Below are positions 41,732-48,849 of a stretch of DNA of 64,000 bases, in pieces. The stretch comes from Firmicutes bacterium UBA5766. Lineage in GTDB: Bacteria > Bacillota > Desulfotomaculia > Desulfotomaculales > Nap2-2B. Made by a program: the position numbers and the translations under genes. Positions within the stretch are counted from its first letter, which is position 1. Each line of letters opens with the position of its first letter. The DNA is taken from assembly GCA_002418775.1 (NCBI GenBank), contig DIEU01000001.1, forward strand, positions 9,551 to 73,550, written 5' to 3'. A model generated the notes under the pieces. That model made no database searches and was not told the DNA's origin. It was given only the letters and a program-made list of their open reading frames with translations.

Positions 41732-43813
41732 ATGAAAAAAGCGTCAATAGTTATTGCGGTGTTGCTTTTGTTTTTATGTTTCTGTGGTGTAGCTTCCGCA
41801 GAAAATGTTGCAAAAGGGAAGTGGGCGGAACAGTCCAGTACGGATTATAATGCGCCACCGACTAGGGCTGTAGATGGAAATACTGATGGTAAATTTTGGA
41901 ATGGTTCGGTATCCCATACTAAGTTTGAGCACACTCCCTGGTGGCAGGTCGATCTGGGGGCCTCTTACTACATTAACAGCGTTATTATCAGCAACAGGAC
42001 TGATTGTTGCGGAGAGAGGTTGAGTGACTATTACGTTTTTGTTTCTGATAGTCCATTCACAACTAACGATGTGAATGCTCTTGCAGGGCAGAGTAATGTA
42101 GGCAAATTCTATATTTCAGGTCCAAACGGTTTGCAAAATCAGTTAAGCATTAACCGGAGCGGGCGTTATGTCAGGATACAACTAACTGGAGACAATTATC
42201 TTCATATAGCTGAGGTGGAAGTTTTGACTTCTGGTGTGAGCACTTCCTCTGCCTCCATTAACGCTACCGTTAGCCCTGGAACCTTGGACATAACAGTTAA
42301 ATACTCCGGGGCTCCTGGAAACGCAAAGGATTGGATTGGTTTTTACAAAGTAGGTTCTGCAGACAATGGATATATCAGTTATCAGTATTTAAACGGCAAT
42401 AAGAGCGGATCTCTAGCTTTCAAGGCGCCAGAACCCGGCGCCTATAATTTCCGCATGTTTGAAAATGATGGCTACAAATTACTTGCCACCAGCAACAATT
42501 TAGTAGCGGCATATAGCGCAAGCTTGACGGCAAAACTTGACGCCTCCGGAGAAAATATTACAGTTACTTACTCCATGGGTCCTGGGAACGCGAAGGATTG
42601 GATAGGTATATACAAAGTAGGCGCTGCAGACAATGGATATATCAGTTATCAGTATTTAAACGGCAATAAGAATGGCTCACTTACTTTCAAGGCGCCGGCA
42701 GTTTCCAATGTGCCACAAGTCGGCACTTATAATTTCCGCATGTTTGTAAATGACGGCTATACACTGCTTGCTACCAGCAACGAAATAGTAATTGGTCAGT
42801 CGACTTACAACTTGACGGCAACACTAAGTGGGGGCAATATCACAGTTACATACTCCGGGGCGCCCGGCAACGCGAGGGATTGGATCGGCATTTACAAAGT
42901 AGGCGCTGCAGACAATGGATATATCAGTTATCAGTATTTAAACGGCAAAAAGTCAGGCTCACTTAATTTCACAGCGCCGACAACCGCAGGTTCTTATAAT
43001 TTCCGTATGTTTGTAAATGACGGCTATACACTGCTTGCTACCAGCAACGAAGTAGTTATTGGTCAGCAAACTTCCGAACAAAATCTGAAAGCAGCCCCAG
43101 GTGACGGCAAGGTTTATCTGAGCTGGAATAAAGACACAAACACCAGCGTGATAGGTTATCACCTTTTCAGGGGCACATCCAGCGGCGGGGAAACCTCAAC
43201 CCCGGTAACGGACTTTGCAATAAAAGAAACCTCCTACGCCGACCCCAATGTCAGCAACGGGATTAAGTATTGCTATATTATGAAGCCGGTTTATAGTGGC
43301 GAAAAGCTAGGCGGAGCTTCCAACGAAGCCTGCGCGACACCGACGCCAAACAGTGGAGGTTCGTCTGGAGGATCCGGAAGCGGAACAGGAACAGGAACCG
43401 GAACCGGGACCGATAATCCCGTAGCAAAGGGAACAAAGATCGTTCTCCTGATCAACAATCCTTACATGACAGTAAACGACGTCAGTAAAGAAATAGACCC
43501 TGGCCGGGGAACAGTGCCCCTTATTTTGAAGGGTAGGACCCTTTTGCCAATCCGGTCTATTGTCGAAGCCATAGGCGGAGAGATTAAATGGAACGAATCT
43601 GAACGAAAAGTAACCATCCTTGTAGGAGCAACTACGATAGAAATGTGGATAGACAGTACTAACACGCGTGTTAACGGGTCTAATAGAACAACAGATGTTG
43701 CTCCTGCAATAATCAACGGAAGAACAATGCTTCCCCTGAGGTTTGTAGCAGAAAACCTGGGCGCTAATGTGAATTGGGACTCCGTAAATTACAAAATAAC
43801 GCTCCTCTTTTAA
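41732..43813 (+). CDS. Secreted multidomain surface protein: F-type lectin, three repeats, FN3, GS/GT linker, copper-amine-oxidase-N-like domain
   Basis: 693 aa with a signal peptide (...CGVASA). The lectin domain has SHTKFEHTPWWQVDLG...NRTDCCGERL. Three repeats of 89-96 aa carry DWIG[IF]YKVG..DNGYISYQYLNG...YNFRMF.NDGY.LLATSN. An FN3-like segment and SGGSSGGSGSGTGTGTGTGT follow. The C-terminus reads ...GRTLLPIRSIVEAIGG...GRTMLPLRFVAENLGA. Confidence 0.85.
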   Translation: MKKASIVIAVLLLFLCFCGVASAENVAKGKWAEQSSTDYNAPPTRAVDGNTDGKFWNGSVSHTKFEHTPWWQVDLGASYYINSVIISNRTDCCGERLSDYYVFVSDSPFTTNDVNALAGQSNVGKFYISGPNGLQNQLSINRSGRYVRIQLTGDNYLHIAEVEVLTSGVSTSSASINATVSPGTLDITVKYSGAPGNAKDWIGFYKVGSADNGYISYQYLNGNKSGSLAFKAPEPGAYNFRMFENDGYKLLATSNNLVAAYSASLTAKLDASGENITVTYSMGPGNAKDWIGIYKVGAADNGYISYQYLNGNKNGSLTFKAPAVSNVPQVGTYNFRMFVNDGYTLLATSNEIVIGQSTYNLTATLSGGNITVTYSGAPGNARDWIGIYKVGAADNGYISYQYLNGKKSGSLNFTAPTTAGSYNFRMFVNDGYTLLATSNEVVIGQQTSEQNLKAAPGDGKVYLSWNKDTNTSVIGYHLFRGTSSGGETSTPVTDFAIKETSYADPNVSNGIKYCYIMKPVYSGEKLGGASNEACATPTPNSGGSSGGSGSGTGTGTGTGTDNPVAKGTKIVLLINNPYMTVNDVSKEIDPGRGTVPLILKGRTLLPIRSIVEAIGGEIKWNESERKVTILVGATTIEMWIDSTNTRVNGSNRTTDVAPAIINGRTMLPLRFVAENLGANVNWDSVNYKITLLF
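42256..43070 (+). repeat. Three tandem coding repeats of about 265-290 bp with long identical nucleotide stretches
   Basis: Units start near 42256, 42521 and 42809. For example, GCAGACAATGGATATATCAGTTATCAGTATTTAAACGGCAA occurs three times, and ATAATTTCCG[CT]ATGTTTGTAAATGACGGCTATACACTGCTTGCTACCAGCAACGAA occurs twice. Confidence 0.9.
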
Positions 43814-43954
43814 AGACAGCAGAGTACTACGGGCGGCAGGTAAATAAAATTATCAGGGAGCATTACTAAAATAGGGAAAAGACTGACAAGGAAAATGAAG
43901 AAGCTAAAGCAAACAACACATATCGTTATTTAGTAGATTAATAATGAAAGATAT

Positions 43955-44000
43955 CTGATAAGATAAAAAAGCGGAGTATCTGCTTTTTTATCTTTATCAG
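43955..44000. terminator. Long A/T-flanked hairpin (bidirectional terminator) after the surface-protein gene
   Basis: CTGATAAGATAAAAAAGC-(loop GGAGTATCT)-GCTTTTTTATCTTTATCAG, an 18-bp stem with one bulge. Confidence 0.7.
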
Positions 44001-44386
44001 GCACATAATCTAAATCCAGACAAAAATTATAGTGTGATTAGTTTAAGAGGGTATTTACAAAGAACGAACTGTATGGTATCATACCTTACAATAGTTAAAA
44101 TAGAATATTTCTATCAATATTCTTCATTTTTTGCGATTAGTCGCATCATTTCTCAGCCCAAATTATTTTGCAAGTTACTCAAAAACCAAGAGCTATTTGT
44201 AAGGATATTATTTGCGCAGCTTTAATCATCGTATTTCAAGATATGCGATTATCCCGGCGAGTTAAGTAATCAGGCAATAAATTAAAGTGCATCGTATAGG
44301 AGATACATGACTGGAGTTGTTTACAAATGTTGGAATGAAAATTCAGGGTAATATATAAGGTATTGGGAAGCGAGGTGATCTAAATA

Positions 44387-44536
44387 ATGAATGAGCTGAT
44401 CTGGTCCGAGCCGCAAATAAAGGAAATTGAAATTAAGATGACAGAACTCAACAAAATTGGATTCAGTACTGATGCGTATTCTTCTTCCATACCCGGCTTG
44501 GTTGGGCGTTTAGAGCCTAATCAGCCCTGCTCTTAG
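44387..44536 (+). CDS. Lasso-peptide-type RiPP precursor 1 (49 aa, below the ORF-track cut-off)
   Basis: Hand-translated as MNELIWSEPQIKEIEIKMTE/LNKIGFSTDAYSSSIPGLVGRLEPNQPCS. GAGGTGA lies 8 nt upstream. It is paralogous to the next ORF and lies upstream of an AsnB-like enzyme and an ABC exporter. Confidence 0.75.
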   Translation: MNELIWSEPQIKEIEIKMTELNKIGFSTDAYSSSIPGLVGRLEPNQPCS

Positions 44537-44611
44537 TGTTGATGTGCAATACATTATGACCACAGGTCCTTTATCTGTTATATACTAATGAGAAGGCGAG
44601 GTGATATAGAA

Positions 44612-44770
44612 ATGAAAAAACTGATCTGGTCCGAACCTCAAATAGCAGAAATTGAAGTCAAAATAACAAGGGATTTTAATAAAGTAGGATTTAATGATGA
44701 TCTATATACACAAGCTACGAATGGTGAACTTCAGGGGGATATATGTCCTGCGGGATCGTGTGGATCATGA
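44612..44770 (+). CDS. Lasso-peptide-type RiPP precursor 2 (52 aa)
   Basis: MKKLIWSEPQIAEIEVKITR/DFNKVGFNDDLYTQATNGELQGDICPAGSCGS, with the same GAGGTGA SD. The track ORF (44588) adds 8 unlikely N-terminal residues. Confidence 0.78.
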   Translation: MKKLIWSEPQIAEIEVKITRDFNKVGFNDDLYTQATNGELQGDICPAGSCGS

Positions 44771-44955
44771 TTTTAATTCTAAAAATGTAATAGCGGAGCA
44801 GCTTTTTTAGTTTTCACAATGCTCTATTAAAATGACTGATGGTCAGTCGACAGCAGAGTGTCCCCCGGAGGATGTAACATACATTCGGTTTTTAATCAAA
44901 GTTGCCTAAGAATATTGATTTTGGCGGCAAGAAGCTAAGAGGCCTTTAAAATATA

Positions 44956-44984
44956 GGCACAAGGCTTGTGCCGTTTTATTTTTT
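44956..44984 (+). terminator. Intrinsic terminator/attenuator between the precursor genes and the cyclase gene
   Basis: GGCACAAGGCTTGTGCC hairpin followed by GTTTTATTTTTT, 37 nt before ATG 45022. Confidence 0.7.
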
Positions 44985-45021
44985 AATTTACACGATTACA
45001 CAAAGACGGTGAAAATCGAAA

Positions 45022-46965
45022 ATGAGCGCCATATGCGGCATTTATTATCTTGACGGCAGGCCGGTTGCCATGGAGACAGGCACAGCCATGATGCGCGAAT
45101 TAAGTATCTATCATGCGGATGATACTGGAGTCTGGCGAGATGGGCACGTATTTATGGGCTGCCATGCCCGTCATGTTACTCCTGAGTCGGTGCAAGAAAT
45201 TCTCCCGTTTCGCGATGACGAGGCAGGTTTATTAATAACAGCGGATGCTTTTATTGATAACCGGGTTGATTTACATGACAGGCTAGGCATTGATTATTCT
45301 CTTCGGGACAATATGACGGACAGTCAGCTTATTTTGCAGGCTTACCGGAAATGGGGCCAGGACTGCTTAAAATATCTTATAGGTGATTTTTCCTTTGTCA
45401 TTTGGGACGAAAAGCGGCAAAAACTGTTTTGCGCTGTGGATCATACAGGTACAAGAGCATTATATTATTTCCGTTCGTCAGAACTTTTTGCCTTTTCAAC
45501 TTTGATCAAACCATTATTTGTGCTGCCGGAGATTACCAAGGAGTATGATGAAAATTGGATCGCCGATTTCCTGGCTATGCCTTCCGTAATGCATCAACTG
45601 GATGCAGAGTTGACCTTATATAGGAATATTTATTTGCTGCCTGCAGGACATACTCTGACAGTATGCCCCAGTGGAGCGGAAAAGCATGTTTACTGGCAAA
45701 TCGAAAGGTATAATGAATTAAAATTAAAGACGGATCATGAATACGAAGAAGCTTTACTGGAAGTTCTTGGTGAAGCAATTCGATGCCGCAAGCGGTGTAT
45801 TCGTCCGGTGGGTGTGATGATGAGTGGAGGACTGGATTCCACCTCGGTGGCCTGTTTGGCTGCCCGGGAAATGGCTGTAAGCGGCCTGCGGCTCCAGGTA
45901 TTTAGCGCTGTACCTATGCTTGGCTATCGGGATTGGGTTCCCGCCGGGATGTTGGCTGATGAGACACCACTTATTGAAGCAGTAAGGGAACATACTGGAA
46001 ATATCGATGTTACATATTGCCGCTCTGAAGGAAAACACTCTTTAAGCGATACCGGCCGGTTTTTGGCAGTATTGGAGCAGCCTTACAAGATTATTGAGAA
46101 CCTGCTCTGGATTGACAGTATTATGATGACGGCGCAGGAATGTAATATCGGTGTCATGTTAATAGGAAGCGCGGGCAATATAACAATTTCATGGGGCGAT
46201 TCTTCATCATATCTGATGTCATTGCTAAAATCTGGTCAATGGTGGCAGTTTCTGCGCGAAAGCCGGAACACAGCCAGGCGTTACCGCAGACCGTTAAAGG
46301 CGTGGCTTAGGTTAATGGATAGAATGCTTCCATATAACTTAAAAATAAATATAAATAGAATCAAAGACCGCGATTGGCACAAGAAGATGCAAGGCCTGTC
46401 TCCCATAAACCCGGATTTTGCACGTTACATTAATGTGCAGGAGAGATTTCGCCGGTTTGGGTATGATCCATATTATTTAAGGCAACTGGACTCTTTTGAA
46501 TCTCGAAAAAAGTATTTTAAACCGGATTTATTCAGTCATCTTGGCGTCATTATGACCAAACATTCGTTGGCTTATGGAATACCGCTGCGTGACCCGACAA
46601 TGGATAAGCGGGTAATCGAATTTTGTCTCAGTTTGCCGGAAAACCAGTATGTGCGCAATGGCCGGGACAGGTTTTTGATCCGTCGGGCTATGAAAGGCAT
46701 TTTGCCTGACGAAGTGCGGCAGAACGTGACGATGCATGGTAAGCAGAACGCCGATTTAGCCCAGCGACTGCAATCTTGCTGGACGGAACTGGCTGAAGAA
46801 ATAAAAGATATCGGCCTTTTGGAAACTGAGCGAAAGTATCTTGATGTTGCCAAAATTCGGTTTGAACTAGAAAAATATAAAACCATAAATGATGATGCGG
46901 CAGATGACTTCGGCTTGCGTATGTTAATACGCAGTCTAATCTTCAGCAGGTTTTTAAGACAGTAA
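45022..46965 (+). CDS. Asparagine-synthetase-fold enzyme, putative lasso-peptide macrolactam cyclase (C protein)
   Basis: 647 aa. The N-terminal Ntn-amidotransferase-like domain starts MSAICGIYY. The PP-loop reads VGVMMSGGLDSTSVACL. Its context is after the precursors and before the ABC exporter. Confidence 0.8.
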   Translation: MSAICGIYYLDGRPVAMETGTAMMRELSIYHADDTGVWRDGHVFMGCHARHVTPESVQEILPFRDDEAGLLITADAFIDNRVDLHDRLGIDYSLRDNMTDSQLILQAYRKWGQDCLKYLIGDFSFVIWDEKRQKLFCAVDHTGTRALYYFRSSELFAFSTLIKPLFVLPEITKEYDENWIADFLAMPSVMHQLDAELTLYRNIYLLPAGHTLTVCPSGAEKHVYWQIERYNELKLKTDHEYEEALLEVLGEAIRCRKRCIRPVGVMMSGGLDSTSVACLAAREMAVSGLRLQVFSAVPMLGYRDWVPAGMLADETPLIEAVREHTGNIDVTYCRSEGKHSLSDTGRFLAVLEQPYKIIENLLWIDSIMMTAQECNIGVMLIGSAGNITISWGDSSSYLMSLLKSGQWWQFLRESRNTARRYRRPLKAWLRLMDRMLPYNLKININRIKDRDWHKKMQGLSPINPDFARYINVQERFRRFGYDPYYLRQLDSFESRKKYFKPDLFSHLGVIMTKHSLAYGIPLRDPTMDKRVIEFCLSLPENQYVRNGRDRFLIRRAMKGILPDEVRQNVTMHGKQNADLAQRLQSCWTELAEEIKDIGLLETERKYLDVAKIRFELEKYKTINDDAADDFGLRMLIRSLIFSRFLRQ

Positions 46966-47034: not shown

Positions 47035-48849
47035 ATGGATATACTTTTAATTTATGTCAGGGAGTTATTCGATTTATCTCCAAAGAAACTTATCGTTAAT
47101 ATGATGCTGATGGTTGTGCTTGGTATTATAGAGGGCATAGGCACATTAATGATCATACCGTTATTAATGGTATCCGGCATTATTCCCGGTATGCAAGAGA
47201 GCAGCGGATTGACTTTCTGGCTGAATCACATTTTTCAAATCGCCGGCGTACCATTAAATTTGCCGGTTATATTATTGTTGTATATAGGTCTTAATTTTGG
47301 GCAGAGCTGGCTGCAACGCTTTCAAACCATACTTAATTTTGATATACAGCAGTCATTTGCTGTTTTTTTGTCTTCCAGGTTGTTTCGGGTTGTAGCCTAT
47401 GCCGAGTGGCAGCTTTTGATATCCAAGACGAAATCGGATATTACCAATGTTATTATAAATGAATTAATACGTGTTTATTCAGGTGTAAATTTTTTCTTGC
47501 AGATAATAACTAACTCACTGATCACTTTAATACAAATTATTTTTGCTTTTATAATAGCTCCTGCACTGACTTGTTTAGTACTGGCCGGAGCTTTTATTTT
47601 ATTCATGTCTTTACAAACATTTACTAAAGAGTCCCGCAGGATGGGACAACATGTTTCGGATTTAAACCGTGATTTGCTTTTTGATCTTACGGAGCATTTA
47701 AACGGTATAAAAGAAATTAAGAGCTATGGTGTTGAGGCTGCTCAGATACGCAATTTTGTCAAGGCGCGTAATATGATGAAGGAGAATCTGGTCAGATTTA
47801 ACGCAATTCAGACCAGGACAGCCATGGCGTATAAAGTTGGCGCGGCTGTCTTTATAAGCTTGTTCTTGTTCAGCGCAATTGAGATATTCAGGCCAAATCC
47901 CCAGGTACTCATAATAATTGCCGTTATTTCGGCACGTCTCTGGCCCAGGCTTGCTTCCTTTCAAACGGGTTTACAGAATATTAATATGAATCTTCCCGCT
48001 TTTCGTGCTGCAAAAGAATTGGAAAATCAATGCCTTGCCGCCCGTGAGAACATGCCGGAAGAAGGAATCATGAGAAGGATGGAGTTAAAGTACGGAGTCG
48101 AATTCCGCAATGTTTCGTTTTTCTATGACTCCGATCGTGCAAGTTATGCTGTTAAAGAAGTTAATTTTGAACTTCCTGTCGGCACAACTACCGCTTTTGT
48201 TGGCGTTTCCGGTGCAGGTAAAAGCACTTTGGTAGATTTATTAATTGGATTGTTAACACCAAAAGAGGGAGATATTTTAATAGACGGTGAACAATTGCTG
48301 GATAATTTGCGTCCGTGGAGAAATTCTATAGGTTACGTACCGCAGGACGCGCTTTTATTTAACGCCAGCATCAGGGATAACCTGTTATGGGCTTGTCCGG
48401 ATGCTGCAGAGGATGATATGTGGGAATCCTTGCGGTTAGCTGCTATCGATTCCTTTATCGGCAGTCTCCCGAATGGTCTGGATACAGTTGTGGGCGATAG
48501 GGGAGTGCGTTTATCCGGTGGCGAGCGGCAGCGTGTTGTTCTGGCGAGGGCGCTTTTAAGAAAGCCGTCGGTTCTTATTTTGGATGAAGCCACGAGTTCC
48601 TTGGATTCTGAAAACGAAACACGTATCCAGCAAGCTATTGAAAACCTGCAGGGTAAAATGACAATCGTAATTGTCGCTCATCGTATATCAACGATTAGGA
48701 ATGCTGACCAGATTCTTGTGCTTGAGCAGGGGCAAATCGTGGAGAAGGGAAATTATCAATCGTTGATGAAAAACAAAGATGGCCGGTTCTATGCCTTAGC
48801 CAGCCAATATAGTGATGAAGAGCGTTTCGCAGGCTGCACATCTATTTAA
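47035..48849 (+). CDS. ABC exporter, fused TMD-NBD (McjD-like D protein)
   Basis: 604 aa with an N-terminal six-helix-type TMD. It has Walker A GVSGAGKST, signature LSGGERQRV, Walker B ILILDEATSSLD and an H-loop VAHR. Confidence 0.9.
   Translation: MDILLIYVRELFDLSPKKLIVNMMLMVVLGIIEGIGTLMIIPLLMVSGIIPGMQESSGLTFWLNHIFQIAGVPLNLPVILLLYIGLNFGQSWLQRFQTILNFDIQQSFAVFLSSRLFRVVAYAEWQLLISKTKSDITNVIINELIRVYSGVNFFLQIITNSLITLIQIIFAFIIAPALTCLVLAGAFILFMSLQTFTKESRRMGQHVSDLNRDLLFDLTEHLNGIKEIKSYGVEAAQIRNFVKARNMMKENLVRFNAIQTRTAMAYKVGAAVFISLFLFSAIEIFRPNPQVLIIIAVISARLWPRLASFQTGLQNINMNLPAFRAAKELENQCLAARENMPEEGIMRRMELKYGVEFRNVSFFYDSDRASYAVKEVNFELPVGTTTAFVGVSGAGKSTLVDLLIGLLTPKEGDILIDGEQLLDNLRPWRNSIGYVPQDALLFNASIRDNLLWACPDAAEDDMWESLRLAAIDSFIGSLPNGLDTVVGDRGVRLSGGERQRVVLARALLRKPSVLILDEATSSLDSENETRIQQAIENLQGKMTIVIVAHRISTIRNADQILVLEQGQIVEKGNYQSLMKNKDGRFYALASQYSDEERFAGCTSI

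What the first reader, a model, noticed from the sequence alone, without database searches (positions are those of the whole stretch)
44387..44770. Precursor peptides: canonical lasso leader geometry but non-canonical predicted core starts, plus a conserved NK[IV]GF..D motif
**Seen**
- Both leaders read M..LIWSEPQI.EIE[IV]K[MI]T[ER], giving W(-15)xxP(-12)xI(-10) and Thr at -2 if cleavage follows residue 20.
- The cores would be LNKIGFSTD-AYSSSIPGLVGRLEPNQPCS (29 aa) and DFNKVGFND-DLYTQATNGELQGDICPAGSCGS (32 aa). Each has Asp at core position 9.
- Core 2 has two Cys and core 1 has one.

**Established**
- Lasso leaders carry a YxxPxL RRE-binding motif and a near-invariant Thr(-2).
- Rings are 7-9 residues closed on Asp/Glu.
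- Residue 1 is almost always Gly, Ala, Ser or Cys.

**Inference**
- The leader and the 9-residue ring fit a Firmicute (paeninodin-like, from memory) lasso family.
- Leu1 and Asp1 are unusual, and the cores are long.
- The strictly conserved Lys in NK[IV]GF lies 6 residues before the conserved Asp. That offers an alternative Lys-Asp side-chain isopeptide that would not need the missing B protease.
Basis: partly seen in the sequence, partly recalled or inferred. Interest (0 to 1): 0.7.

Follow-up and report, generated by a model that had tools for sequence, protein, structure and literature searches.

The report
Lasso peptide genes missing their protease
Two small genes encode real precursors of paeninodin-type lasso peptides, sitting beside a ring-closing enzyme and an exporter but with no leader-cutting protease nearby; related bacteria suggest the protease sits elsewhere in the genome, so this is an unusually arranged member of a known family rather than new chemistry.

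Summary
Two tandem ORFs (44387-44536 and 44612-44770) share a W(-15)xxP(-12)xI(-10)...T(-2) leader and an N-K-x-G-F...D core motif.

They belong to the paeninodin-like (Bacillota, WxxP-leader) lasso precursor family. They form a small subfamility, x-[ND]-K-x-G-x-x-x-D, with 14 distinct members. At least seven of these lie in canonical kinase-B1-B2-A-C-D clusters.

The predicted first residues Leu, Asp and Phe are new relative to characterised lasso peptides. They are ordinary for this family: only 61 of 130 predicted cores start with G, A, S or C.

The 64-kb window has no RRE (B1), no B2 protease and no kinase, and no remnants of them. A sister lineage has the same A1-A2-C-D module at the same chromosomal position. 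C and D are under purifying selection (dN/dS about 0.15).

Relatives show split clusters. Pelotomaculum propionicicum carries A-C on one contig and K-B1-B2-D on another.

The most likely mechanism is canonical lasso maturation with B1/B2 supplied in trans. The Lys-Asp side-chain idea is not supported. It is not excluded either, because the Lys-to-Asp spacing is constant while the Thr-to-Lys distance varies.

The parts
44330..44358 (+). Candidate sigma-70-type promoter (TTGGAA, 16-17 nt spacer, TATATA/ATATAA) just upstream of the first precursor gene
   Evidence: Read directly. The -10 region GGTAATATATAAGGTA is conserved in the sister lineage L083, while sequence further upstream is not. The scan tool did not report it. 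Inference only.
44387..44536 (+). Precursor peptide A1 (49 aa): 20-aa WxxP leader plus predicted core LNKIGFSTD...PCS
   Evidence: The identical peptide (P0124) is called on 16 contigs. The orthologue in the sister lineage has a leader differing at 1 of 20 residues and a more variable core.
44612..44770 (+). Precursor peptide A2 (52 aa): 20-aa WxxP leader plus predicted core (D)FNKVGFNDD...SCGS
   Evidence: It is homologous to the precursor of the canonical Peptococcaceae BRH_c4b cluster (MKQLWSEPQITEIKVRMTE|DDKVGDNTD...). It carries a one-codon (Arg) insertion at the leader/core junction relative to its orthologue.
44956..44982 (+). Intrinsic-terminator-like hairpin (GGCACAAGGCTTGTGCC followed by a T-run) between the precursors and the cyclase gene; probably a partial terminator that sets the precursor:enzyme ratio
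   Evidence: 7-bp stem, 4 GC pairs, T-run. It is identical in L083. The A2-C spacer is 85% identical overall between lineages. Its function is inferred.
45022..46965 (+). Lasso cyclase homologue C (647 aa, Asn-synthase-like; PP-loop SGGLDS intact; no N-terminal nucleophile Cys)
   Evidence: Pfam Asn_synthase and GATase_7. NF033535 scores 424 bits, below its 525 cutoff, but so do the cyclases of canonical clusters (376-449 bits). It is 72% identical to BRH_c4b C. S268-S273 are invariant. dN/dS is 0.16 against the sister lineage.
47035..48849 (+). ABC exporter D (604 aa, transmembrane plus ATPase domains, no C39 peptidase domain)
   Evidence: Pfam ABC_membrane and ABC_tran. It occupies the same position as D in related clusters. 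dN/dS is 0.14.

Best explanation
**What it is.** The two ORFs are genuine precursors of paeninodin-like class II lasso peptides. They belong to a subfamily whose ring segment reads x-N-K-x-G-x-x-x-D. They are encoded in a reduced module, A1-A2-C-D, which has been separated from the kinase-B1-B2 part of the ancestral cluster.

**Proposed mechanism** (every step is inferred from homology; none is shown for this locus):
1. A discrete RRE (B1) encoded elsewhere in the genome binds the W(-15)xxPxI leader.
2. Its partner B2 cysteine protease cuts near Thr(-2) or Thr(-3).
3. The 647-aa cyclase adenylates the conserved Asp (D9 in A1; D9 or D10 in A2).
4. The cyclase closes a roughly 9-residue macrolactam onto the new alpha-amine (Leu1 in A1; Asp1 or Phe1 in A2) around the C-terminal tail.
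5. The ABC transporter exports the product.
6. The conserved C-terminal Ser may be phosphorylated if an HPrK-like kinase is also present in trans.
For: **Leader.** The geometry matches the paeninodin-like hallmark W(-15)xxP.

**Cyclase.**
- C is 72% identical to the cyclase of Peptococcaceae BRH_c4b. That locus reads K-B1-B2-A-C-D and its precursor is a clear homologue of A2.
- C is 52-55% identical to the cyclases of Pelosinus and Formimonas clusters, which have K, PqqD and Transglut_core3 genes.
- The PP-loop is intact.
- Neither C nor D carries an extra domain that could replace B.

**Subfamily context.** At least seven distinct subfamily precursors lie immediately after B2 and before C.

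**Conservation of the B-less module.**
- A sister lineage has the same A1-A2-C-D at the same syntenic site.
- dN/dS is 0.16 for C and 0.14 for D, so both genes are maintained.
- Leaders stay nearly invariant while cores diverge.

**Trans supply is a real arrangement in relatives.**
- Pelotomaculum propionicicum GCA_048984525.1 has A-C on contig 14. It has K-B1-B2-D, with no precursor or cyclase, in the interior of contig 12.
- BRH_c4b has a second A-C pair that shares one B1-B2.
- About ten Paenibacillus and Cohnella loci have C-A-K with no B1/B2 within 8 kb.

**C-terminal Ser.** It is present in 105 of 130 family precursors and in both window peptides.
Against: - No B1, B2 or kinase is detectable anywhere in the 64-kb window, even with family HMMs run with filters off at E<=10 and tblastn at E<=50 on the flanks.
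- I could not show that the same genome encodes them elsewhere.
- A named search for B2 homologues (best 120 of 5727) returned none attributed to the annotated sister MAG 'Desulfofundulus kuznetsovii'.
- None of the best 80 metagenome loci came from the window's own metagenomes. Both lists are truncated and MAGs are incomplete.
- The number of residues between Thr and the invariant Lys varies (2, 3 or 5) across the subfamily while Lys-to-Asp is always 6. A fixed T(-2) cleavage therefore predicts rings of 9, 10 and 12 residues, which is awkward for the canonical model.
- No lasso peptide starting with Asp or Phe has been characterised. Asn1 was first reported in 2025 (PMC12670498).
Confidence: 0.62

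Rival explanations
1. B-independent chemistry. The cyclase adenylates the conserved Asp and joins it to the epsilon-amine of the invariant Lys six residues upstream. This gives a side-chain-to-side-chain 7-residue lactam, with or without later leader removal by a housekeeping protease.
For: - Lys and the Asp at K+6 are invariant in all 14 subfamily members.
- The length of the segment between Thr and Lys varies (2, 3 or 5 residues) and the residue before Asn is not conserved (L/F/D/I/Y/Q).
- Two lineages keep C and D under purifying selection with no B nearby.
Against: - At least seven homologous Lys-containing precursors sit directly behind B1-B2, so they are evidently processed by the lasso protease.
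- The window cyclase is 72% identical to those enzymes and has no extra domain.
- In the wider family Lys3 occurs in only 18 of 130 cores.
- From memory, not checked here: paeninodin (AGPGTSTPD ring, no Lys) is closed A1-D9.
- K3-D9 spacing of 6 follows automatically from Lys at ring position 3 of a 9-residue ring, as in AGKGWKQID and YGKGNTTID.
- The leader retains the RRE- and B2-recognition residues.
- The only known Lys side-chain macrocycle in lasso peptides (class V) is made by a clostripain-like transpeptidase, not by C (PMC13178200).
Confidence: 0.08
2. Orphaned remnant. The module lost K-B1-B2 and no longer makes a lasso peptide. The peptides are unprocessed or the genes are on the way to decay.
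For: - No B1, B2 or K in 64 kb, and no fragments.
- No B2 attributable to the same MAGs was found.
- One contig variant of the same species has the cyclase gene split into 499 + 137 aa (L089).
Against: - The same B-less module is intact in two lineages.
- dN/dS is 0.16 (C) and 0.14 (D), comparable to the neighbouring alpha-amylase at 0.19.
- Both precursor ORFs, their ribosome-binding sites, their leaders and the terminator hairpin are conserved.
- The split in L089 is in an old draft assembly. The other five contigs show an intact 647-aa gene.
Confidence: 0.12
3. Canonical lasso formation but in a different register. The core starts one residue later than the T(-2) rule predicts in A2 (Thr at -3, core FNKVGFNDD, ring F1-D9). 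The same would apply to P0132, L103 and L093, so every subfamily member makes the same 9-residue ring. This variant concerns only where B2 cuts.
For: - The sister-lineage orthologue of A2 lacks the Arg codon, so T(-2) there gives exactly FNKVGFDPD.
- The residue before Asn is hydrophobic in A1 (L), the A2 orthologue (F), P0132 (L), L103 (I) and L104 (Y).
- 21 of 130 family precursors have their first acidic residue at position 10. Many of these would give G1-D9 rings if Thr were at -3, for example TE|YGTKVTSKSD.
Against: - Thr(-2) is regarded as a near-invariant recognition element for B2 (literature cited).
- Window A2 also offers D9 for a D1-D9 ring.
- L104 fits neither the T(-2) nor the T(-3) register for the same ring.
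Confidence: 0.3

Closest known systems
Paeninodin-type lasso peptide clusters of Bacillota (padeCAB1B2 with HPrK-like kinase and ABC exporter; PbaA/PbaB1 of Popov et al. 2026)
   Same: - W(-15)xxPx[LIV]...T(-2) leader.
- An approximately 9-residue ring segment ending in Asp.
- A C-terminal Ser.
- An Asn-synthase-like cyclase, 36-43% identical to the Paenibacillus, Cohnella and Bacillus-group enzymes.
- An MsbA-like exporter directly downstream.
   Different: - No B1, B2 or kinase in 64 kb.
- Two tandem precursors placed upstream of C, whereas the Paenibacillus loci have C followed by A.
- The ring begins with Leu, Asp or Phe and has N-K-x-G instead of G-x-G.
- Cys-containing tails.
Peptococcaceae bacterium BRH_c4b cluster (VR69_02785-02805), uncharacterised
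   Same: - Closest named relative: C is 72% identical and the gene order is A-C-D.
- Its precursor MKQLWSEPQITEIKVRMTE|DDKVGDNTD...CCCS has the same leader, K-x-G...D ring motif and Cys-rich C-terminus ending in Ser.
   Different: - BRH_c4b carries K-B1-B2 immediately upstream.
- It has one precursor of this type, not two.
- It has a second A'-C2 pair downstream.
Split lasso loci in Pelotomaculum propionicicum GCA_048984525.1
   Same: - An A-C module with no B1/B2 within 3.3 kb upstream (where the contig ends) or 10 kb downstream. Its cyclase is 60% identical to the window's.
- The precursor has a WxxP leader and a C-terminal Ser.
- The K-B1-B2-D module is on another contig without a precursor or cyclase.
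   Different: - There the exporter travels with B1-B2, not with C.
- The core is KQKPYSGND, not the NKxG type.
- In that genome the trans partner is visible. For the window genome it is not.
Lasso peptides with unusual first residues (metanodin, Asn1; from memory also citrulassin/lagmysin, Leu1)
   Same: A predicted non-Gly/Ala/Ser/Cys residue at ring position 1 with Thr two residues upstream.
   Different: - Those come from Proteobacteria and Actinobacteria, with YxxP leaders and complete clusters.
- Asp1 and Phe1 have no characterised precedent that I could find.

Membership tests
Paeninodin-like lasso precursor peptides | Leader with a W(-15)xxP(-12)x[LIVF](-10) RRE-binding motif | tested here: met
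   Both peptides read WSEPQI with W at -15. The motif definition comes from PMC13381572. 130 of 138 family precursors collected here have the same 15-residue W-to-cleavage spacing.
Paeninodin-like lasso precursor peptides | Thr at -2 and an Asp/Glu acceptor at core position 7-9 | tested here: met
   T19 is at -2 in both, and D9 is present in both. Caveat: the Asp conserved by alignment in A2 is D10, and the orthologue lacks the Arg codon.
Paeninodin-like lasso precursor peptides | Core residue 1 small (Gly/Ala/Ser/Cys), as in characterised lasso peptides | tested here: not met
   Predicted residue 1 is Leu (A1) and Asp or Phe (A2). This criterion also fails for 69 of 130 predicted family members, so it does not define this family.
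Paeninodin-like lasso precursor peptides | C-terminal Ser (phosphorylation site of the HPrK-like kinase) | tested here: met
   Both peptides end in Ser, as do 105 of 130 in the family. No kinase gene is in the window.
Lasso peptide biosynthetic gene cluster (A + B or B1/B2 + C) | Asn-synthase-like macrolactam cyclase adjacent to the precursor | tested here: met
   The gene at 45022-46965 has Pfam Asn_synthase plus GATase domains. NF033535 scores 424 bits, which is below the cutoff like all family members. It is 72% identical to the cyclase of a canonical cluster.
Lasso peptide biosynthetic gene cluster (A + B or B1/B2 + C) | RRE (PqqD-like B1) and transglutaminase-like leader peptidase (B2) in the cluster | tested here: not met
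   There are no hits in the whole 64-kb window. This was tested with phmmer using three seeds per family, family HMMs with filters off at E<=10 and tblastn. The same methods found B1 in 63 and B2 in 61 of 80 homologous loci (57 have both).
Lasso peptide biosynthetic gene cluster (A + B or B1/B2 + C) | B1/B2 present somewhere in the same genome | not testable with these tools
   Only 64 kb of the genome is available, and the collection scans are capped and truncated. A relative with split modules is documented.
Lasso peptide (product) | N-terminal alpha-amine to Asp/Glu isopeptide with a threaded tail | not testable with these tools
   This needs MS/MS, thermal or carboxypeptidase unthreading assays, or NMR.
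Graspetide / side-chain Lys-Asp macrolactam RiPPs | ATP-grasp ligase next to the precursor | tested here: not met
   No ATP-grasp domain was found in the cluster genes or in the neighbours scanned between 39538 and 53188.

The most novel reading that the evidence does not exclude
In this x-N-K-x-G-x-x-x-D subfamily the lasso-type cyclase would use the epsilon-amine of the invariant Lys, not the alpha-amine of residue 1, as the nucleophile. The result would be a Lys-Asp side-chain lactam with a variable N-terminal overhang of 2-5 residues. In the two B-less lineages this chemistry would work without leader proteolysis.

This reading would explain two things: the constant K-to-D spacing despite a variable Thr-to-Lys distance, and the maintenance of C and D where no B is detectable.
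Probability: 0.07. Interest if true: 0.8.

Novelty: new variant of a known kind. Interest (0 to 1): 0.38.

Why it matters
Only a handful of Bacillota lasso peptides have been characterised, and none from strictly anaerobic Desulfotomaculia-type bacteria. This locus bears on three open points.

- **First-residue range.** It is a concrete test of how far the first-residue tolerance of lasso cyclases extends (Leu, Phe, Asp). The first Asn1 example was still reported as unprecedented in 2025.
- **Genome mining.** Lasso modules can be split across a genome. Mining tools that require A, B and C together will miss or mis-score such loci.
- **Cleavage register and ring size.** The subfamily has a conserved ring motif that slides relative to the Thr cleavage mark. 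This gives a natural series for asking what sets the B2 cleavage register and the ring size.

If the Lys turned out to be the nucleophile, that would be new chemistry for this enzyme family. The evidence makes this unlikely.

Tried and rejected
- **B1/B2/kinase in the window.** I searched with single-sequence seeds, family HMMs (filters off) and tblastn on the intergenic flanks. Nothing was found except a P-loop match between the kinase and the ABC ATPase.
- **B2 in the same MAGs.** I used the last named protein search and the single metagenome scan. I followed six B2 candidates (P0141, P0161, P0180, P0184, P0251, P0158) to their contigs. None came from GCA_002421505.1 or GCA_001507835.1.
- **Sub-cutoff NF033535 score as a sign of a non-lasso enzyme.** Rejected, because cyclases of canonical clusters score the same or lower.
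- **The upstream 693-aa secreted protein as part of the cluster.** Rejected, because it is absent from the sister lineage, where the hydrogenase gene directly precedes A1.
- **A peptidase domain on the exporter.** None found.
- **Rfam scan of 43800-45100.** Nothing credible.
- **PDB sequence search with C.** It returned only Asn synthetases and a hydroxyamidotransferase. No lasso cyclase structure was found to compare against.
- **A coding role for the 25-aa ORF at 44832-44909.** Rejected, because an indel disrupts it in L083.
- **Literature.** Several searches for B-less lasso clusters or Lys-nucleophile lasso cyclases found no precedent.
- **Not used.** I did not run structure prediction. 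The tool folds single chains, so it could not address leader-RRE or peptide-cyclase complexes.

Full report
**1. The observation**

Reading 44200-44900 and listing ORFs confirms two small + strand ORFs.
- A1, 44387-44536: MNELIWSEPQIKEIEIKMTELNKIGFSTDAYSSSIPGLVGRLEPNQPCS.
- A2, 44612-44770: MKKLIWSEPQIAEIEVKITRDFNKVGFNDDLYTQATNGELQGDICPAGSCGS.

Each is preceded by GCGAGGTGAT at ribosome-binding distance. With cleavage after residue 20, both have W(-15), P(-12), I(-10) and T(-2). The cores are 29 and 32 aa with Asp at position 9, and carry one and two Cys respectively.

One detail needs correcting. The Asp that lies six residues after the Lys, and that aligns with the conserved Asp of homologues, is D9 in A1 but D10 in A2.

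**2. The locus**

- Downstream lie a 647-aa Asn-synthase-like protein (45022-46965) and a 604-aa ABC exporter without a peptidase domain (47035-48849).
- A terminator-like hairpin sits between A2 and the enzyme gene.
- Next come hpt, guaA, purE and purB.
- Upstream are a secreted F5/8-type-C / Cu_amine_oxidN1 protein and Fe-hydrogenase genes.
- The best NCBIfam hit of the enzyme is the lasso cyclase model NF033535 at 424 bits, below its 525-bit cutoff. Cyclases from canonical clusters of this family score 376-449 bits on the same model, so the shortfall says nothing.
- The PP-loop SGGLDS is invariant across homologues.

**3. The missing genes**

I took the kinase, PqqD (B1) and Transglut_core3 (B2) proteins from three relatives, after confirming them by Pfam. 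With these I searched six-frame translations of 80 homologous loci and the window.
- B1 turned up in 63 of the 80 homologous loci and B2 in 61 (57 have both). The window gave none.
- Family HMMs run with filters off at E<=10 gave nothing credible.
- tblastn on the flanking intergenic DNA at E<=50 also gave nothing credible.

**4. Family placement**

The cyclase has hundreds of homologues in Peptococcaceae, Desulfotomaculia-type bacteria, Sporomusa, Clostridium and Paenibacillus.
- A pattern scan of the loci finds W-x-x-P-x-[LIV]...T-x peptides next to nearly every cyclase.
- Popov et al. 2026 (PMC13381572) report that W at this position is nearly invariant in paeninodin-like precursors. They also show it is a main determinant of binding to the discrete RRE PbaB1 (Kd below 1 uM).
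- The closest named relative, Peptococcaceae bacterium BRH_c4b (C 72% identical), reads K-B1-B2-A-C-D. Its precursor is MKQLWSEPQITEIKVRMTE|DDKVGDNTDMWTNMTGLDGDIVPDGTCCCS, an evident homologue of A2.

A profile search with the peptides, plus mining of all fetched loci, gives 14 distinct members of a subfamily x-[ND]-K-x-G-x-x-x-D. At least seven lie directly between B2 and C in complete clusters (L081/L095, L096, L097, L103, L104, L093). Three more share a contig with a B2 hit, judged by equal contig lengths.

**5. How unusual are Leu1 and Asp1?**

In 130 distinct family precursors with the W(-15)...T(-2) geometry, predicted residue 1 is distributed as follows:

| Residue 1 | Count |
|---|---|
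| A | 36 |
| G | 21 |
| Y | 12 |
| D | 11 |
| L | 10 |
| N | 10 |
| others | 30 |

- The first acidic residue is at position 9 in 72 precursors and at position 10 in 21.
- 105 precursors end in Ser.
- Non-canonical predicted starts are therefore the rule in this family.
- Experimentally they remain almost untested. The metanodin paper (PMC12670498) still listed Gly, Cys, Ser and Ala as the observed first residues and reported Asn1 as a first in 2025.

**6. Is the B-less module alive?**

- The identical locus occurs on many contigs from alkane-degrading and oil-sands tailings metagenomes, and in MAG GCA_002421505.1.
- A sister lineage (MAG GCA_001507835.1 and others; C 94.6% identical) has the same A1-A2-C-D next to the same hydrogenase and glycogen genes, again without B.
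- Between the two lineages, dN/dS is 0.16 for C, 0.14 for D, 0.29 for A1 and 0.57 for A2. The neighbouring alpha-amylase gives 0.19.
- Leaders differ at 1-2 of 20 residues while cores differ at about a third.
- The module is therefore maintained by selection, which argues against simple decay.

**7. Where could B come from?**

Relatives show that modules are shared or split.
- BRH_c4b has a second A'-C2 pair 5 kb from the only B1-B2.
- About ten Paenibacillus and Cohnella loci have C-A-K with no B1/B2 within 8 kb. In four others, the same kind of module sits 4-5 kb from another module that has B1-B2.
- Most tellingly, Pelotomaculum propionicicum GCA_048984525.1 carries A-C on contig 14. It carries K-B1-B2-D, with no precursor or cyclase, in the interior of contig 12.
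- 'Desulfotomaculum sp. 46_80' has a K-B1-A-D-B2 locus without a cyclase. Its precursor has the same WSEP leader but no acidic residue in the core.

I could not find the partner locus for the window's own genome. The trans-supply step therefore remains an inference.

**8. The Lys-Asp idea**

*For.* Lys and the Asp six residues later are invariant in all 14 members. The number of residues between Thr-x and Lys is 2 in nine members, 3 in four (window A2, P0132, L103, L093) and 5 in one (L104). A strict T(-2) cleavage would then give rings of 9, 10 and 12 residues.

*Against.*
- The same peptides sit in clusters with B1-B2.
- The cyclases are close homologues of those acting on Lys-free rings.
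- Lys at ring position 3 of a 9-residue ring gives the spacing automatically, as in AGKGWKQID and YGKGNTTID elsewhere in the family.
- The leader keeps its RRE and protease recognition residues.
- The only documented Lys side-chain macrocycle in lasso peptides is made by a clostripain-like transpeptidase (PMC13178200).

A simpler reading of the sliding register is that B2 tolerates Thr at -2 or -3, so that the ring always begins at the residue before Asn. The sister orthologue of A2 lacks the Arg codon and then obeys T(-2) exactly with core FNKVGFDPD. I put the Lys-nucleophile reading at about 7-8%.

**9. Verdict**

These are real precursors of a paeninodin-like lasso subfamily, in a reduced A-A-C-D module that most likely depends on B1/B2 encoded elsewhere.
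- It is a new architectural variant and a new sequence subfamily of a known kind.
- It is of moderate interest.
- The cleavage register, the ring size and the source of the protease are left open.

Noticed in passing
L176:4483-8501 (JGI 3300010236 / 'Desulfotomaculum sp. 46_80'); precursor at L176:5862-6026: A K-B1-A-D-B2 locus next to Wzz with no cyclase gene. Its precursor, MLPLKKVWSEPTVIEISTKTTE|NYQAHGLNGPHLPNLPHGSNGPQGPHTLQVIS, has a paeninodin-type leader, no Asp/Glu anywhere in the core, and a C-terminal Ser. It looks like a cyclase-less, presumably linear (and phosphorylated?) derivative of the lasso pathway that still uses the lasso B1/B2 protease.
   Followed up: partly
L180:3047-5172 and L181:8753-12254 (Pelotomaculum propionicicum GCA_048984525.1, contigs 14 and 12): A split lasso cluster. 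A-C is on one contig; 3.3 kb upstream that contig begins with an rve transposase fragment. K-B1-B2-D, followed by an IS110 transposase, is on another. A second WxxP-leader peptide with a Gly-rich core and no acidic residue at positions 7-10 lies at L180:8190-8408 (-).
   Followed up: partly
L081:14811-17138 (Peptococcaceae BRH_c4b): A second precursor-cyclase pair. Its predicted core, MPANDHPPGNANGKISTGNDAFGLGHS, has no Asp/Glu at positions 7-10 (only D5 and D20). It does not fit a 7-9-residue ring if cleavage follows T-x.
   Followed up: no
Loci L001-L174, family-wide: 21 of 130 paeninodin-like precursors have their first acidic residue at predicted core position 10, and 16 have none at positions 7-10. 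Many of the position-10 cases would give a Gly1-Asp9 ring if Thr were at -3 (for example TE|YGTKVTSKSD, TN|HGTTITKKPD, TK|DGVSPTAEHD). The T(-2) rule may mis-place the core start for a sizeable part of this family.
   Followed up: partly
window:39538-41091 (-): The Fe-only hydrogenase is read as two ORFs (314 aa with the catalytic and small-subunit domains, plus a 174-aa ferredoxin-like part). This holds in the window and in all contigs of the same species. The sister lineage has one 516-aa gene at the same place (L086:7916-9466). It could be a genuine split or a conserved frameshift.
   Followed up: no
window:41732-43813 (+): A 693-aa secreted protein (F5/8 type C, SKICH-like and Cu_amine_oxidN1 domains) lies between the hydrogenase genes and A1 in this species. 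It is absent from the sister lineage, so it is an insertion unrelated to the peptide module.
   Followed up: partly
window:44771-45021 (+): The 250-nt spacer between A2 and the cyclase gene is 85% identical between lineages, with long identical runs that include the terminator hairpin. That is at least as conserved as the precursor genes (nucleotide identity 85% for A1, 81% for A2). No Rfam family matches.
   Followed up: partly
L089:10636-12580 (JGI 3300000032): On one draft contig of the same species the cyclase gene is called as two pieces (499 + 137 aa). This is probably an assembly or sequencing error, since the other contigs are intact.
   Followed up: no
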